64,000 nt of DNA from Escherichia coli (GTDB taxonomy: Bacteria > Pseudomonadota > Gammaproteobacteria > Enterobacterales > Enterobacteriaceae). Made by a program: the position numbers. Shown here piece by piece: positions 28,601-34,600 of the stretch; the first letter of the stretch is position 1; each line of letters starts with the position of its first letter. Location of the stretch: NCBI RefSeq assembly GCF_009931435.1, contig NZ_CP043414.1, one strand, 5' to 3'.

Positions 28601-31600
28601 GCACATGTGCACGAAAAGCCCTCCACACCGCCTGGCAATATTACTGCGCTGGTTATTTATCTGCTTTCCTGCTGGCGGGCGTATAAGTTTCGCAAAATGT
28701 TGTGTAAAAGCCAGCAAGGCTATCTGCTCATCACCGACCGCTACCCGCAGGTTGAAGTGCCGGGTTTTCGCTTTGATGGCCCGCAACTGGCAAAAAACAC
28801 GGGCGGTAACGGCTGGATAAAAATGTTAAGACAGCGCGAGCTCAAACTTTACCAATGGATGGCGTCTTATTTGCCCGTATTGTTGATTCGTCTTGGCATT
28901 GATGAACAAACCGCGTTTGCGCGTAAACCTGACCACCAACTGGCGGCGTTACAGGAAAAAATCGCTGTTACGCCGCAACTGACATTCAATGGCGCAAAGA
29001 TCCTTGAACTGGATGGTCGGCAACCAGCCGATGAAATTCTGCAAGCGTCACTACGCGCAATTCACGCCGCGCTTTCCTGATCACCAAATGGATAGGGGAT
29101 GATTTAACGAATGGATGCACTACAAACACAAACTGTTAATAGTACAACCGCGCCGCAGCCCAACTACATTCCGGGGCTGATTGCGGTGGTCGGGTGTGAT
29201 GGCACCGGTAAATCCACACTGACCACTGACCTGGTGAAATCGCTGCAACAACACTGGCAAACCGAGCGCCGCTATCTGGGGCTGCTCTCCGGCGAAGACG
29301 GCGACAAAATCAAACGGTTGCCGCTCGTTGGCGTCTGGCTGGAACGGCGACTGGCGGCCAAATCCTCGAAAACCCAAAGCATGAAAACCAAATCTCCGGC
29401 GCTATGGGCGGCGGTGATTATGTACTGCTTCTCGCTGCGAAGAATGGCGAATCTACGCAAGGTTCAGCGACTGGCGCAAAGTGGCGTTCTGGTGGTCAGC
29501 GATCGCTTCCCGCAGGCTGAAATTTCGGGCTTTTATTATGACGGACCGGGGATTGGCGTCGAGCGTGCGACCGGGAAAATCAGCATGTTTCTGGCACAGC
29601 GCGAACGGCGTTTATACCAAAAAATGGCGCAATACCGTCCTGAATTAATTATTCGTTTGGGGATTGATATTGATACTGCCATCTCCCGCAAGCCTGACCA
29701 TGACTATGCCGAGCTGCAGGACAAAATCGGTGTCATGTCGACGATTGGCTATAACGGCACAAAAATTCTTGAGATTGATTCCAGAGCGCCCTACAGCGAA
29801 GTGCTGGAACAGGCACAGAAGGCGGTTTCTCTGGTTGCAATCGTTTCTGACCGCCGAAGTTTAACTTAAGGTTGGCGGGATACTTTTTACTATCAACGAT
29901 AAGGTCAGGCTGAATTGGCGGGGTTTAACATCAAACATTGGTTTGCAGATGGCGCGTTTCGCACCATTATTCGCAATAGCGCCTGGTTAGGCTCCAGTAA
30001 TGTCGTGAGCGCTTTGCTGGGTCTGTTGGCGCTCTCGTGTGCCGGTAAAGGGATGACGCCCGCCATGTTTGGCGTACTGGTGATTGTGCAATCGTACGCC
30101 AAGTCGATCAGCGATTTTATTAAGTTTCAGACATGGCAGCTGGTGGTTCAGTACGGAACGCCAGCCTTGACCAATAATAATCCGCAGCAATTTCGCAATG
30201 TCGTCTCATTTTCCTTCTCGTTGGATATCGTCAGCGGCGCGGTGGCGATTGTCGGCGGCATTGCCTTACTCCCTTTTCTTTCCCATTCATTAGGTCTGGA
30301 TGACCAAAGCTTTTGGCTGGCAGCGCTGTATTGCACGCTCATTCCTTCAATGGCTTCCTCCACACCGACCGGCATTCTGCGTGCGGTAGATCGCTTCGAT
30401 TTGATTGCTGTACAGCAGGCGACGAAACCTTTTCTGCGCGCAGCGGGGAGCGTCGTAGCCTGGTATTTTGATTTTGATTTTGGTTTTGCGGGTTTTGTTA
30501 TTGCCTGGTACGCATCGAATCTGGTTGGCGGCACCATGTACTGGTGGTTTGCCGCGCGCGAATTACGCCGCAGAAATATCCATAACGCCTTCAAATTGAA
30601 TTTGTTTGAGTCTGCCCGACACATTAAAGGCGCGTGGAGTTTTGTCTGGTCAACCAACATTGCCCACTCCATCTGGTCGGCACGTAACTCGTGCAGCACA
30701 GTGTTGGTGGGGATCGTGTTAGGACCCGCTGCCGCCGGGTTATTTAAAATCGCCATGACATTCTTCGATGCCGCCGGAACGCCAGCGGGTTTACTGGGCA
30801 AAAGTTTTTACCCAGAGGTGATGCGTTTAGATCCGCGCACCACCAGACCGTGGTTGTTAGGCGTGAAGTCCGGTTTACTGGCGGGCGGAATCGGTATTCT
30901 GGTGGCGCTCGCGGTGTTGATCGTCGGCAAGCCGCTCATTTCGCTGGTGTTTGGCGTTAAGTATCTCGAAGCGTATGACCTGATTCAGGTGATGCTTGGC
31001 GCAATTGTGATTTCGATGCTGGGCTTCCCACAGGAGTCATTGCTATTGATGGCGGGAAAACAGCGCGCTTTTCTCGTGGCGCAAACCATCGCCTCAATCG
31101 GCTACATCGTATTGCTGTTCATGTTCTGTCATCTGTTTGGCGTGCTGGGGGCTGCATTTGCTTACTTCGGTGGGCAATGTCTGGATGTGGTGCTCTCGTT
31201 AATTCCAACCTTAAAGGCATTTTTTCAGCGCCATTCCTTGCTTTATAACGCAGCCGGAGAGAAATCCTGATGATGAGAAAATATTTCCCGCTTGAGGCGA
31301 GCGAGCGTCTATTTATTGCAGTTGAAGAAGATGATGTCGTTGATGCGCAGGTCAGTTTACCGCCGACTATCGCAACAGGTTGTACCACCGAAATCATTCA
31401 TGATAATTACGCGTTATGCCTGCAATTCTGGCTGAATGGCGTTGATCGTCAGGAATTACTGCGTTTAATCCACAAACAAGCCAAAGGCGAGGGGCTTACG
31501 GCTGACGAGCGTAAACAGTTTAAATATATGCGGGCGCGTTATAAGCATCTACGTTTTGCCCAACGGTTGTATTTAAAAAAGCATCAGGCCGGATTTTTAT

Positions 31601-34600
31601 TTGGCAAAACGACCGTTTTTCTTGGACGTTTTCAGGACGGCTTTCGTAACGGTAAGAAAAATATTGTGTCGTTTTACGGCAACCTTTTACGGATTTATTT
31701 AAGCTCTCCGGTCTGGTTGTTGGTGAACTATTCATTACGCCATAGCCAGTTAGAAAGCGTAAGCGGTTTTATTGCCTATCGGCAAAAGCAAATGCACCTC
31801 CTGAAAGAGATTATTGCCAAACCACGGCTAACTGGCAGGGAATTTCATGATGTACGAAAAATAATCAGCCAGCAGGTTTCTTATTACGACACCCTAAGAT
31901 CGCTTGATCCTGAAAATAAAGAAGCGTTACAGATTTCCCGCTTCCTCGCCGCCATTAATGGCCTGATGGGGGATAAACACGACGACATGGTGGCGGATGA
32001 TATGGAAAACCGCCAGTCGTATGATGCACCGATGGCGCTGGATAGCGATATTCGTCAGCGCTTAGAACTGCTGATTTCGCGTTTTCCGCTATAACCGGAG
32101 CAATGATGTCATCTCGTTTGATTATTGCGCTGATTATCATGCTCTTAGCCCCGGGTGTGCAGGCGCACAATTTCGTCACTGGTAAAACGGTTACCCCTGT
32201 TTATATCCAGGAAGGCGGCGAGCTGCTTCTGAATAGCGACGACGAAATTCACTACCAAAAGTGGAACAGCACACAGCTGGCGGGAAAAGTCCGCATTATT
32301 CAGTATATCGCCGGGCGTAAGTCGGCGAAGAAAAAGAACTCACTGTTAATTAAAGCGGTTGAAGCGGCAAACTTTCCGCAGGATCGTTTTCAGCCCACCA
32401 CCATTGTGAACACCGATGATGCCATCTTTGGTACTGGCTATTTTGTCGTTGGCAAAATCGAAAAAAATAAACGCCGCTATCCGTGGGCGCAATTCGTTAT
32501 TGACGGCAATGGACAGGGACGCGTTGTCTGGCGGTTGCCGGAGCAGAGTTCAACCATTCTGGTGCTGAATAAAGCCGGGCAAATTCAGTGGGCAAAGGAC
32601 GGCAGCCTGACGCCGGAAGAGGTAGATCATGTCATTGCGCTGGCGCAGAAGCTGATCAATGAATAAAAATTCAAAGGATTGAGGGCGTTAGTGAGATGAA
32701 GCTGGTTGAACACTACATCATGCGTGGTACGCGCCGTCTGGTGCTGATTATCGTCGGTTTTCTGATCTTTATTTTCGCCAGCTACTCCGCACAGCGTTAT
32801 CTGACCGAAGCGGCAAATGGGACATTAGCTCTTGATGTTGTGCTGGATATTGTTTTCTACAAGGTGCTGATTGCACTGGAGATGTTGTTACCTGTTGGAC
32901 TGTATGTGTCAGTTGGCGTGACGCTAGGGCAGATGTATACCGACTCGGAAATTACCGCTATTTCTGCGGCGGGGGGGAGTCCGGGACGCTTGTACAAAGC
33001 CGTTCTTTATCTGGCGATACCGCTAAGTATTTTTGTCACCCTTCTGTCGATGTATGGTCGTCCGTGGGCTTATGCGCAGATTTATCAACTGGAGCAACAG
33101 TCGCAGTCGGAGCTGGATGTTCGCCAGTTGCGGGCAAAGAAATTTAACACTAACGATAACGGACGAATGATCCTTTCGCAGACGGTTGATCAGGATAATA
33201 ATCGCCTGACTGACGTGCTGATTTATACTTCTACTGCCAATCGAACCCGTATTTTCCGCGCCCGTTCGGTTGATGTAGTTGACCCATCACCCGAGAAACC
33301 GACCGTTATGTTGCATAACGGGACCGCCTATCTTCTCGATCATCAGGGGCGTGACGACAACGAACAGATCTACCGTAATCTGCAATTGCATCTGAATCCG
33401 CTGGATCAAAGCCCTAACGTCAAACGCAAAGCAAAATCGGTCACGGAGCTGGCGCGCTCCGCCTTTCCTGCCGATCATGCCGAACTGCAATGGCGACAAA
33501 GCCGTGGCCTGACAGCATTGTTGATGGCGCTGCTGGCCATTTCATTAAGTCGGGTAAAACCGCGGCAAGGGCGATTTTCAACGTTATTGCCACTGACGTT
33601 GCTGTTTGTTGCCATTTTTTATGGCGGCGACGTCTGCCGTACGCTGGTGGCTAACGGCGCGATTCCCCTCATTCCTGGTTTGTGGTTAGTACCCGGACTC
33701 ATGCTAATGGGCCTGCTGATGCTGGTAGCACGCGACTTCTCTTTGCTGCAGAAATTTTCCCGATGAATGTTTTCAGTCGCTATTTAATCCGTCATCTCTT
33801 TCTCGGTTTTGCCGCCGCCGCAGGGCTATTGCTGCCGCTCTTTACCACCTTCAACCTGATTAACGAACTGGATGATGTCAGCCCGGGTGGTTATCGCTGG
33901 ACTCAGGCGGTGCTGGTGGTGCTGATGACCTTACCGCGCACACTGGTCGAACTTTCGCCGTTTATCGCCTTATTGGGAGGGATTGTCGGCCTGGGGCAGT
34001 TATCGAAAAACAGTGAGCTTACCGCCATTCGCAGCACGGGGTTTTCTATCTTCCGTATTGCACTGGTGGCGCTGGTTGCCGGGATATTGTGGACTGTTTC
34101 ATTAGGCACGATAGATGAGTGGGTGGCGTCGCCATTGCAGCAACAGGCGCTGCAAATCAAATCGACTGCCACTGCGTTGGGGGAGGACGATGACATTACC
34201 GGCAATATGCTGTGGGCCAGGCGTGGTAATGAATTTGTGACGGTGAAATCGCTGAACGAGCAGGGCCAGCCGGTGGGCGTGGAGATATTTCATTACCGCG
34301 ACGATCTCTCGCTCGAATCCTACATTTATGCACGCAGTGCCACCATTGAAGACGACAAAACGTGGATCCTGCATGGTGTGAATCATAAAAAATGGCTGAA
34401 TGGCAAAGAAACGCTGGAAACATCTGATAATCTTGCCTGGCAATCGGCCTTCACCAGTATGAATCTTGAAGAGTTATCGATGCCGGGAAATACTTTTTCT
34501 GTCCGTCAACTTAATCATTACATCCATTATTTGCAGGAAACCGGGCAACCCAGCAGCGAATACCGCCTTGCACTGTGGGAAAAACTGGGACAACCCATCT

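What the first reader, a model, noticed from the sequence alone, without database searches (positions are those of the whole stretch)
31270..32094. Orphan 274-aa ORF translationally coupled to the flippase gene
The ATG overlaps the yghQ stop (TGATG), and the gene is followed 9 bp later by the YtfJ-like gene, so it is embedded in the operon. I see no recognisable motif, signal peptide or TM helix in its translation, making it a candidate pathway-specific soluble factor of unknown type.
Basis: seen in the sequence. Interest (0 to 1): 0.4.

Follow-up and report, generated by a model that had tools for sequence, protein, structure and literature searches.

The report
Hidden polyphosphate-binding-type protein beside lipid flippase
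The "orphan" 274-residue gene is a real, widely conserved, highly diverged member of the CHAD family (helical proteins that bind phosphate polymers), always made together with a lipid flippase and thymidylate-kinase-like enzymes in sphingolipid-producing bacteria, which suggests that (poly)phosphate chemistry is part of this still unexplained E. coli lipid pathway.

Summary
The ORF (31270-32094, +) exists as described. Its ATG shares one base with the yghQ stop (TGATG), and a GGAG plus 8-11 nt separate it from the YtfJ gene. It has no signal peptide and no TM helix.

It is not an orphan. It occurs in 4165 of 5426 complete E. coli genomes and in about 200 clusters at 50% identity across Gamma-, Alpha- and Betaproteobacteria. 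dN/dS within Escherichia is about 0.07.

In 79 loci from four orders the constant neighbours are a YghQ flippase directly upstream (64/79, usually with stop/start overlap) and 1-3 dTMP-kinase-like paralogues, YghR/S/T (71/79). The spt/ceramide genes are adjacent in Enterobacterales and Xanthomonadales.

Best reading: a cytoplasmic phosphate-polymer- or phospho-headgroup-binding subunit of a kinase-flippase module for an anionic envelope (sphingo)lipid. Its gene context echoes the archaeal PPK3 operon (dTMPK paralogues plus CHAD). The fold is shown here; the ligand and role are inferred.

The parts
31270..32094 (+). The finding: a 274-aa cytoplasmic, basic (pI 9.3), all-alpha protein. It is a diverged 'long' CHAD-fold protein. 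RefSeq lists it as WP_000984956.1, 'hypothetical protein'.
31522..31554 (+). First-bundle basic motif K85-x2-R88-x3-K92-x2-R95 (FKYMRARYKHLRFA). It aligns with the CHAD H-x2-R-x3-R polyP-contacting triad.
   Evidence: R88 is invariant; K92 and R95 are conserved in at least 90% of 66 sequences. The role of the triad in CtCHAD/SsCHAD is from PMC6537752.
31843..31860 (+). Second-bundle motif F192-H193-x2-R196-K197. It aligns with the second CHAD H-x2-R motif. The downstream K/R/R-Y positions of canonical CHAD are S200/Q201/V203-S204 here.
   Evidence: H193 and R196 are invariant; F192 and K197 are at least 90% conserved.
31957..31983 (+). N230-G231-x-M233-G234-x2-H237-D238, the counterpart of the CHAD 'LGxxxD' motif. 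The first-bundle equivalent is G119..Q122-D123 (31624-31638).
   Evidence: D123 and D238 are invariant; N230, G231, M233, G234 and H237 are at least 90% conserved. They align to 'ELGRHND' of 6qv5. A half-against-half hhalign puts the two motif pairs in register, but weakly (E 0.013).
29915..31270 (+). The full-length (451 aa) YghQ MOP-family flippase. Its stop codon overlaps the ORF's start codon.
   Evidence: Pfam Polysacc_synt_3 and NCBIfam MOP flippase, both weak hits. It lies directly upstream of the ORF in 64 of 79 loci. Stop/start overlap or zero gap occurs in at least 49 of 69 loci.
27501..28193 (-). YghT, a dTMP-kinase-like P-loop paralogue transcribed divergently from yghS.
   Evidence: Weak Pfam Thymidylate_kin and TIGR00041 hits, below their cut-offs. 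Paralogues of this kind lie within 10 kb of the ORF in 71 of 79 loci.
28367..29869 (+). YghS (28367-29080) and YghR (29111-29869), dTMP-kinase-like P-loop paralogues and the first genes of the putative operon.
32103..34842 (+). Downstream operon members: a periplasmic YtfJ-family protein (32103-32666) and the LptF2 (32696-33766) and LptG2 (33760-34842) permease paralogues.
   Evidence: Pfam YtfJ_HI0045 at 8.6e-59 and LptF_LptG at 1.9e-55 and 2.2e-69. These genes are linked to the ORF only in Enterobacterales. LptF2/G2 are required for sphingolipid transport in Caulobacter (bioRxiv 10.64898/2026.04.12.717747).
34877..40463 (.). Ceramide-synthesis genes: spt, acpR, cerR/epi and aasR on the minus strand, and yghO (aca/bCerS) on the plus strand.
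   Evidence: PGAP annotation of the identical strain. The E. coli BL21 orthologues ECD_02850-02854 have been characterised (PMC9386255).

Best explanation
The ORF encodes a diverged, 'long'-type CHAD-fold protein: two four-helix bundles with a conserved basic ridge. It is cytoplasmic. It is co-translated with the YghQ MOP flippase and co-inherited with the YghR/S/T dTMP-kinase-like P-loop paralogues.

Most likely it binds a phosphate-rich anion through K85/R88/K92/R95 and H193/R196/K197. That anion could be an oligo- or polyphosphate chain, or the (pyro/poly)phosphorylated head group of a lipid intermediate. In this reading the protein is the non-catalytic ligand-holding or adaptor subunit of a kinase-flippase module. 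The module builds an anionic envelope lipid on the inner face of the membrane and hands it to YghQ for flipping. In E. coli that lipid would be a decorated ceramide, which LptF2/LptG2 then extract.

Shown here: the gene is real, its fold and motifs are CHAD-like, and its linkage is conserved. Inferred: the ligand, the adaptor role and the lipid product.
For: Fold:
- The AF2 model has pLDDT 97 and pTM 0.93.

Sequence:
- The profile of the distant branch hits CHAD 6qv5 at E=6.7e-5 as its top PDB hit; the whole-family profile hits it at E=0.034.
- 20 of 66 members hit Pfam CHAD, best E 1.7e-8.
- P0176 (40.9 bits) and P0258 (36.8 bits) exceed the gathering score of 25.6, and P0176 aligns to the family at hhalign probability 100%.

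Ligand site:
- The invariant and near-invariant columns are the CHAD motif positions.
- The H/R/R triad that hydrogen-bonds polyP in CtCHAD and SsCHAD (PMC6537752) corresponds to K85/R88/K92 here.
- The protein is basic: pI 9.3, family median 9.3.

Partners:
- YghQ lies directly upstream in 64 of 79 loci, and dTMPK-like paralogues lie within 10 kb in 71 of 79, across Enterobacterales, Xanthomonadales, Sphingomonadales and Acetobacteraceae.
- An uncultured relative at 32% identity keeps the order Tmk-like | YghQ | ORF | Tmk-like.
- ATGA/GTGA or TGATG overlaps with yghQ are conserved.

Lipid context:
- The spt/acpR/cerR/aasR genes are adjacent in Enterobacterales (39 of 46) and Xanthomonadales (5 of 5).
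- Elsewhere the neighbours are ArnC-like GT2, ArnT-like PMT_2, GT4 and an LpxO-like hydroxylase.
- The taxa that carry the family are known sphingolipid producers (PMC9386255).

Kinase link:
- Some relatives are fused to an APH-family kinase (P0258).
- The Sulfolobus PPK3 operon pairs two dTMPK-like paralogues with a CHAD protein (PMC12995831).
Against: - The E. coli protein itself gives no Pfam or NCBIfam hit.
- hhalign of the family against the 'short' CHAD of E. coli YgiF finds nothing.
- Foldseek against the PDB is not significant: 6qv5 has E 0.23 and TM 0.43.
- The first-bundle histidine is lysine in this family. Several second-bundle basic positions of canonical CHAD, including the counterpart of CtCHAD R418/Y419, are S/Q/V/S here. 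Long-chain polyP may therefore not be the ligand.
- No ppk, ppx, sixA or CYTH gene is in the locus.
- No binding, localisation or lipid data exist.
- The product of the E. coli sphingolipid locus is unknown.
- A more distant branch carries Sec signal peptides, so the family is not uniformly cytoplasmic.
Confidence: 0.55

Rival explanations
1. This is a purely cytosolic polyphosphate system. YghR/S/T would be a bacterial PPK3-like polyP kinase or polyP-dependent nucleotide kinase, and the ORF its classical polyP-binding CHAD partner. Its position beside the flippase and sphingolipid genes would be incidental.
Against: Stop/start overlap with a membrane flippase is conserved across three orders. 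Every context examined consists of envelope-lipid genes. No ppx, sixA or CYTH gene is nearby. Canonical Tmk scores as well as or better than 2plr, so placement in the PPK3 clade is not shown. E. coli already has PPK1, PPX and YgiF. pitB linkage is seen in only 9 of 46 Enterobacterales loci.
Confidence: 0.17
2. The ORF protein is a structural or regulatory cytoplasmic partner of YghQ, for example a plug, chaperone or gate. The helical CHAD scaffold would have been reused without any phosphate-binding function.
For: The tightest linkage and the translational coupling are with yghQ. The family is too diverged for the Pfam model to detect the E. coli protein. Several canonical basic positions are lost.
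Against: The residues that never vary (R88, H193, R196, D123, D238) are the CHAD signature positions rather than a new surface. The family stays basic. In Carnimonas, a betaproteobacterial MAG and a gammaproteobacterial MAG the gene occurs with Tmk-like genes but without an adjacent yghQ.
Confidence: 0.13
3. The ORF protein is itself an enzyme, for example a phosphotransferase, phosphatase or head-group transferase, that uses the invariant His/Asp residues (H105, D123, H193, H237, D238), possibly with a metal.
For: Invariant His and Asp residues sit alongside the basic residues. The locus lacks the CpgA-D head-group enzymes of Caulobacter, so some activity is unaccounted for.
Against: The same His/Asp positions are conserved in CHAD domains. 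Those domains were shown to be non-catalytic polyP binders and are unlikely to bind metal (PMC6537752). No structural match to any enzyme fold outranks the CHAD hits.
Confidence: 0.08
4. The ORF is a decaying or non-functional passenger gene in E. coli, with no current role.
For: The locus is eroding in some lineages. K-12 lost the 3' end of yghQ through aasR to an IS5 element. Strain SW07091 keeps only the first 144 nt. O145:H28 has a stop codon in yghO. 23% of complete genomes lack the ORF.
Against: dN/dS is about 0.07 with no frame disruption across Escherichia species. The full-length gene is present in 4127 genomes. Conservation extends to 20-25% identity in other classes.
Confidence: 0.04

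Closest known systems
CHAD domain (Pfam PF05235): stand-alone 'long' CHAD proteins such as Ricinus RcCHAD (6qv5), Chlorobium CtCHAD (3e0s/6qv7) and Streptomyces PptA (6rn5)
   Different: The E. coli protein is invisible to the Pfam model. The first-bundle His is Lys. Several second-bundle polyP-contacting K/R/Y positions are replaced by S/Q/V/S. It is not next to ppk, ppx or CYTH genes. Instead it is translationally coupled to a MOP flippase inside envelope-lipid (sphingolipid) loci. PolyP binding is untested.
Archaeal PPK3 operon (Sulfolobus acidocaldarius saci_2017-2021: sixA, ppx, two dTMPK-like paralogues forming heteromeric PPK3, CHAD protein; PMC12995831)
   Different: There is no ppx or sixA. 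There are two to three paralogues plus a flippase. YghR/S/T are no closer to 2plr than to ordinary thymidylate kinases, and they carry a conserved insertion of about 40-50 residues between the P-loop and the DRY motif. PolyP kinase activity and placement in the PPK3 clade were not tested.
Caulobacter crescentus sphingolipid locus CC_1152-CC_1168 (ceramide synthesis, CpgA-D/CerK head-group enzymes, flippase CC_1166, LptF2/G2/C2)
   Same: The E. coli locus shares spt, acpR, aasR, cerR, bCerS (yghO), a Polysacc_synt-type flippase and LptF2/LptG2.
   Different: The published annotation of the Caulobacter genes lists no CHAD-like or dTMPK-like gene. The E. coli locus has no CerK/CpgA-D-type genes. 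The YghR/S/T plus CHAD-like set therefore occupies the place of the head-group-decorating enzymes and implies a different head group.
E. coli YgiF (CYTH triphosphatase fused to a 'short' CHAD domain, 5a60/5a61)
   Different: YgiF has the short form without protruding helices and is fused to an enzyme domain. No sequence relationship is detectable by hhalign. It lies at a different locus, between glnE and ygiM.

Membership tests
CHAD domain (PF05235) | Two four-helix bundles related by pseudo-two-fold symmetry (PMC6537752) | tested here: met
CHAD domain (PF05235) | First-bundle H-x2-R-x3-R motif whose side chains hydrogen-bond polyP (CtCHAD H253/R256/R260) | tested here: met
   It aligns to K85/R88/K92. 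R88 is invariant and K92 is at least 90% conserved. The His is replaced by Lys, which is also basic, so the feature is met with one substitution.
CHAD domain (PF05235) | Second-bundle basic motif H-x2-R-x3-K-R-x-R-Y (CtCHAD R418/Y419 and neighbours) | tested here: inconclusive
   H193, R196 and K197 are conserved, but the K/R/R-Y positions are S200/Q201/V203/S204 in the E. coli protein. R201 is present in many relatives.
CHAD domain (PF05235) | Score above the Pfam gathering threshold (25.6 bits) | tested here: not met
   The window protein gives no hit at E<=1. Family members P0176 (40.9 bits) and P0258 (36.8 bits) pass, and 20 of 66 give hits at E<=10. Membership is therefore supported transitively and at superfamily level.
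CHAD domain (PF05235) | Specific binding of inorganic polyphosphate (nM-uM Kd) | not testable with these tools
   This needs purified protein and GCI/ITC measurements. Only the conservation of basic residues and a pI of 9.3 bear on it.
CHAD domain (PF05235) | Genomic association with polyP enzymes (CYTH/TTM fusion, ppk, ppx) | tested here: not met
   No ppk, ppx or CYTH gene is among the 19 annotated genes around the ORF, nor among the neighbours examined elsewhere.
PPK3-type system (dTMPK-like heteromer + CHAD) | Two or more dTMPK-superfamily paralogues encoded together, with the canonical tmk elsewhere | tested here: met
PPK3-type system (dTMPK-like heteromer + CHAD) | Placement of the kinases in the PPK3 clade rather than with other dTMPK-like proteins | tested here: inconclusive
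PPK3-type system (dTMPK-like heteromer + CHAD) | Operon with ppx/sixA, and polyP kinase activity | tested here: not met
   ppx and sixA are absent from the locus. Activity is not testable here.
Rhodobacterial sphingolipid locus (spt-acpR-aasR-cerR-bCerS with LptF2/G2) | The ORF lies within or next to the five ceramide genes and the LptF2/G2 transporter genes | tested here: met
   Annotation of the identical strain. The genes match BL21 ECD_02850-02854 (PMC9386255). Linkage holds in 39 of 46 Enterobacterales loci and 5 of 5 Xanthomonadales loci, but in 0 of 17 Sphingomonadales loci, where sphingolipid genes are known to be scattered.

The most novel reading that the evidence does not exclude
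The YghR/S/T kinases belong to a superfamily whose typical reaction is phosphoryl transfer onto a phosphate. They may build an oligo- or polyphosphate chain on a lipid anchor (ceramide phosphate in E. coli), or they may use polyP as the donor. The CHAD-like protein would hold the growing or donor chain, YghQ would flip the product, and LptF2/G2 would export it. That would be a lipid-anchored (poly)phosphate on the bacterial surface and a new function for CHAD domains outside cytosolic polyP granules.
Probability: 0.12. Interest if true: 0.85.

Novelty: new variant of a known kind. Interest (0 to 1): 0.55.

Why it matters
E. coli's sphingolipid locus is present in most strains but missing from K-12. 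It has validated early enzymes, but its final product, head-group chemistry and phenotype are unknown.

Recognising the unnamed gene as a CHAD-type (poly)phosphate binder gives a concrete, testable hypothesis for the missing head-group and export steps. So does recognising YghR/S/T-YghQ-CHAD as a module conserved from Enterobacterales to Sphingomonadales and Acetobacteraceae. The hypothesis is that the pathway uses phosphate or polyphosphate chemistry different from the Caulobacter CpgA-D route.

The result also extends the CHAD family to a subfamily that current profile libraries miss. It provides a bacterial counterpart in gene context to the recently described archaeal PPK3 operon. The full-text search of open-access papers and preprints found no paper that contains both 'CHAD domain' and 'sphingolipid'.

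Tried and rejected
- **Direct Pfam and NCBIfam scans of the ORF:** no hits.
- **phmmer of the ORF against PDB sequences:** only noise.
- **hhalign of family profiles A1 and A4 against E. coli YgiF as a single sequence:** no relationship detected. I did not build a canonical CHAD alignment, so a proper profile-profile test is still missing.
- **The search for related loci with the 66-sequence alignment:** failed because no stretch was conserved enough. It succeeded with a 22-sequence subset.
- **A Caulobacter counterpart:** none of CC_1152-CC_1168 is described as CHAD-like or dTMPK-like, so I rejected the idea that the ORF is a CpgA/B/C/D orthologue.
- **Literature searches:** yghQ/R/S/T, yghO + sphingolipid, and CHAD + sphingolipid found nothing about this gene.
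- **Context of the signal-peptide branch and of the APH-kinase fusions:** the contigs were short or uninformative.
- **Whether the ORF is an unusually divergent allele in this strain:** it is not remarkable. It is 93.5% identical, against 96% across the locus, and yghT is 93.1%.
- **Promoter and terminator scan:** counts were no higher than in shuffled sequence. There is no convincing terminator inside yghS..lptG2.

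
Full report
**Observation**

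The ORF at 31270-32094 (+) encodes 274 aa. The upstream gene is a full-length, 451-aa YghQ-type MOP flippase that ends with TGA at 31268-31270. The ORF's ATG is 31270-31272, so the two genes share one base (TGATG), and a GGAGAG lies 8 nt upstream. The ORF stops at 32094. The YtfJ-family gene starts 8 nt later (first ATG) or 11 nt later (PGAP start), behind a GGAG.

The highest 19-residue hydropathy mean is 1.03, there is no N-terminal hydrophobic segment, and pI is 9.28.

The window is E. coli. It is 100% identical to strain 2017-02-2CC, where the gene is annotated 'hypothetical protein' WP_000984956.1.

**A real gene, and not an orphan**

- The gene is found in 4165 of 5426 complete E. coli genomes, at full length in 4127.
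- dN/dS against other Escherichia lineages is 0.067-0.083, with no frame disruption.
- A search of 5.8 billion proteins gave 343 homologous clusters. They include E. albertii at 87% identity, Pseudocitrobacter at 74%, Hafnia at 67%, and Serratia, Sodalis, Pantoea and Rouxiella at about 60%.
- An exhaustive phmmer run against 1.84 billion 50%-identity representatives gave 197 clusters at E<=1e-3 and 137 at E<=1e-10.
- A scan of one genome per GTDB species found 149 relatives. They come from Enterobacterales, Xanthomonadales (Luteibacter, Rhodanobacter, Dyella), Sphingomonadales (Novosphingobium, Sphingobium, Sphingopyxis, Sphingomonas), Acetobacteraceae (Acetobacter, Komagataeibacter, Bombella), Carnimonas and a betaproteobacterial MAG.
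- K-12 lacks the gene. An IS5 element (insH9) replaces everything from the 3' end of yghQ to aasR. That probably explains why the gene never received a name or a study.

**What it is**

Pfam and NCBIfam do not recognise the E. coli protein. An alignment of 66 diverse relatives shows a striking pattern. R88, D123, H193, R196 and D238 are invariant. K92, R95, H105, G119, Q122, F192, K197, N230, G231, M233, G234, H237 and Y251 are at least 90% conserved. Together these form two copies of 'basic helix motif, then G-x-x-(Q/H)-D'. That is the signature of CHAD (conserved histidine alpha-helical domain). Four independent tests support this assignment:

1. Scanned one by one, 20 of the 66 relatives hit Pfam CHAD, best E 1.7e-8. 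P0176 (40.9 bits) and P0258 (36.8 bits) exceed the gathering score of 25.6. P0176 aligns with the family profile at hhalign probability 100% over 275 columns.
2. The family profile's best hit among 177,635 PDB sequences is the Ricinus CHAD domain 6qv5 at E 0.034. The profile of the most distant branch reaches E 6.7e-5, and CtCHAD 6qv7/3e0s also appears in that list. Both motif pairs align in register.
3. An AlphaFold2 model built on the alignment is very confident: pLDDT 97, pTM 0.93, 11 helices.

Some tests were weaker or negative. Foldseek was not significant: 6qv5 had E 0.23 and TM 0.43, although that was the best probability in the list. hhalign against the 'short' CHAD of E. coli YgiF found nothing.

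One UniRef entry already calls a family member a 'CHAD domain-containing protein' (P0104). Automated annotation has therefore touched on this, but the paper searches turned up none that discusses it.

**Comparison with the CHAD ligand site**

Lorenzo-Orts et al. (PMC6537752) showed several things about CHAD domains:

- They are two four-helix bundles with pseudo-two-fold symmetry.
- 'Long' forms of about 300 aa have a central basic pore.
- PolyP is bound by conserved basic residues. Mutating the H253/R256/R260 triad of CtCHAD (H29/R32/R36 in SsCHAD) lowers affinity, and further mutating R296 and R418/Y419 lowers it further.

In the alignments to RcCHAD, the triad corresponds to K85/R88/K92 of the ORF. 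In the second bundle H193 and R196 are kept. The following K/R/R-Y positions are S200/Q201/V203/S204 in E. coli, although R201 is common in relatives. The basic ridge is therefore retained but trimmed on one side. That fits a phosphate-rich ligand, but not necessarily long-chain polyP.

**Gene context**

I compared the window's genes with 79 loci from the genome scan by tblastn.

| Neighbour | Where it is linked to the ORF |
|---|---|
| YghQ-type flippase directly upstream, same strand | 64 of 79 loci |
| At least one YghR/S/T-like P-loop gene within 10 kb | 71 of 79 loci, usually two or three |
| spt/acpR/cerR/aasR within 10 kb | 39 of 46 Enterobacterales, 5 of 5 Xanthomonadales, 0 of 17 Sphingomonadales, 0 of 7 Acetobacteraceae |
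| YtfJ and LptF2/G2 | Enterobacterales only |

Sphingolipid genes in Sphingomonadales are known to be scattered.

Among 69 loci with an upstream flippase, the flippase stop and ORF start overlap by 4 nt (ATGA/GTGA) in 31 and by 1 nt in 12. They abut with zero gap in 6.

A metagenomic relative at 32% identity keeps the order Tmk-like | YghQ | ORF | Tmk-like.

Where spt is not adjacent, the neighbours are still envelope-lipid genes:

- In Acetobacter: a GT4, a MOP flippase, an ArnT-like PMT_2 and an ArnC-like GT2.
- In Carnimonas: a PMT_2 and a GT2.
- In the betaproteobacterial MAG: a GT4.
- In Xanthomonadales: an LpxO-like Asp/Asn hydroxylase between yghR and aasR.

**The partners**

YghT, YghS and YghR are paralogues, 34-43% identical to one another. 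PGAP labels yghT and yghS 'dTMP kinase' and leaves the yghR-like gene 'hypothetical protein'; all three are far below the dTMP-kinase family cut-offs. Their profile's best PDB hits are thymidylate kinases at E about 1e-6.

The resemblance in gene content, dTMPK-like paralogues plus CHAD, is notable. However, ppx and sixA are absent here, and YghR/S/T are no closer to 2plr than to ordinary Tmks. I therefore treat PPK3 as an analogy and do not claim membership.

Two more observations are relevant. The two paralogues are fused into one protein in Bombella. Some distant CHAD-like relatives are fused to an APH-family kinase (P0258). Both reinforce a 'kinase plus CHAD-like' partnership.

**The locus in E. 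coli**

The adjacent genes spt, acpR, cerR/epi, aasR and yghO correspond to BL21 ECD_02854-02850. For these, AcpR, AasR and SPT have been shown to make 3-oxo-sphinganine (PMC9386255). LptF2/LptG2 paralogues are required for sphingolipid transport in Caulobacter and use the housekeeping LptB (bioRxiv 10.64898/2026.04.12.717747).

The Caulobacter head-group enzymes are CerK/CpgB, Tam41-like CpgC, CpgA, CpgD, a CofC-like protein and a phosphoesterase. None has a counterpart in the E. coli locus, and the Caulobacter locus is not described as containing CHAD-like or dTMPK-like genes. In E. coli the YghR/S/T plus CHAD-like set therefore sits where head-group chemistry would be expected.

The putative operon is yghS-yghR-yghQ-ORF-ytfJ-lptF2-lptG2. 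The gaps are 30, 45, -1, 8 and 29 nt, followed by an overlap. It contains no convincing internal terminator, and a promoter-like site lies upstream of yghS, although such consensus matches are not enriched over shuffled sequence.

**Mechanism proposed**

- Shown: the gene is real, conserved and coupled to yghQ, and its product has the CHAD fold and motifs.
- Inferred, with moderate support: it binds a phosphate-rich anion on its basic ridge and works with the YghR/S/T kinases and the flippase on an anionic envelope lipid. In E. coli this would be a decorated ceramide that LptF2/G2 then extract.
- Unresolved: whether the ligand is free oligo/polyP (as donor or product) or the phosphorylated head group of the lipid.

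I put 0.55 on this reading. The rivals are:

- a purely cytosolic PPK3-like polyP system (0.17);
- a flippase partner that no longer binds phosphate (0.13);
- an enzyme (0.08);
- a decaying passenger gene (0.04).

The most novel reading not excluded is a lipid-anchored oligo- or polyphosphate built by the dTMPK-like kinases, with the CHAD-like protein holding the chain. I give it about 0.12.

**Novelty and verdict**

This is a new variant of a known kind: a CHAD subfamily that profile libraries miss, in a new context (flippase-coupled, sphingolipid-associated). 'Orphan' and 'unknown type' are not.

Interest is moderate to good at 0.55. It is not a new kind of system. It does turn an unnamed gene in a poorly understood but widespread E. 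coli lipid locus into a specific, testable hypothesis, and it links two recent lines of work, bacterial sphingolipid export and PPK3/CHAD polyP biology.

Noticed in passing
L086 (E. coli K-12 MG1655 NC_000913.3, 3130146-3132408); corresponds to window ~30980-39400: In K-12 an IS5 element (IS5LO/insH9) sits between yghO and a truncated, 355-aa yghQ. The 3' end of yghQ, the ORF, ytfJ, lptF2, lptG2, spt, acpR, cerR and aasR are all missing. The laboratory reference strain therefore lacks the whole sphingolipid and CHAD-like part of the locus.
   Followed up: partly
L002 (E. coli SW07091, locus 6001-9476): This is a different decay pattern. The ORF is cut after 144 nt and joined to the end of spt, so ytfJ and lptF2/G2 are deleted. 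aasR is truncated and abuts type II secretion pseudogenes (gspD/E/F/L). A related chimera is annotated 'GspM' (P0032, 280 aa, 94% identical to 81% of the ORF).
   Followed up: no
L088 (E. coli O145:H28 strain 16003, locus 17064-18206): yghO, the putative ceramide synthase (aca/bCerS), is a pseudogene with an internal stop in this EHEC strain, although the rest of the locus is intact.
   Followed up: no
window 27501-29869 (yghT, yghS, yghR): The three dTMP-kinase-like paralogues share invariant GxDGxGKST, DR(Y/F)PQ and ARKPDH motifs. They also share a conserved insertion of about 40-50 residues (LGxxSGxIGxxIxxLPLIG...) between the P-loop helix and the DRY strand. That insertion is modelled with low confidence (pLDDT 57-61 for YghS residues 51-90). 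Ordinary thymidylate kinases have nothing equivalent, and it may be the substrate or partner site.
   Followed up: partly
L076 10820-12382 (-) (Bombella sp. ESL0385): Two YghT/YghR-like P-loop domains are fused into a single ORF of about 520 aa. This resembles the two-domain class II PPK2 enzymes and is consistent with the paralogues working as a heteromer.
   Followed up: no
P0123 (564 aa); P0258, P0269, P0267 (659-983 aa); L084 10001-12931: The family includes a tandem duplicate (two complete CHAD-like domains in one protein). It also includes proteins with an N-terminal APH/choline-kinase-type kinase domain followed by two CHAD-like domains. The neighbourhoods of the latter showed no lipid genes.
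   Followed up: partly
P0158, P0215, P0219, P0221, P0230, P0245, P0260 (distant branch, 20-27% identity): A distant branch of the family carries clear Sec-type signal peptides (for example MRRLALLVFIFSLSLAIPAQA). Some CHAD-like proteins are therefore predicted to be periplasmic or secreted, which is unexpected for a polyP binder. The contigs were too short to see their context.
   Followed up: partly
L046 3525-4283 (+) (Rhodanobacter sp. L36); similar N-terminus at L081 10272-10858: An LpxO-like Asp/Asn beta-hydroxylase-family gene (Pfam E 5.5e-52) lies between the yghR-like and aasR-like genes in Xanthomonadales. It is a candidate acyl-chain hydroxylase for the sphingolipid. The gammaproteobacterial MAG L081 interleaves two CHAD-like genes with three Tmk-like genes.
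   Followed up: partly
window 32103-32666 (YtfJ family): The YtfJ/HI0045-family periplasmic protein (signal peptide MMSSRLIIALIIMLLAPGVQA) is linked to the ORF in 44 of 46 Enterobacterales loci but in no other order. It is a second uncharacterised, lineage-specific component between the flippase module and LptF2/G2. It could be a periplasmic handler of the lipid.
   Followed up: no
window 31270-32094 and 36049-36297: The ORF (45.0% GC) and acpR (40.6% GC) are clearly less GC-rich than the window (51.9%) and their neighbours (49-55%).
   Followed up: no
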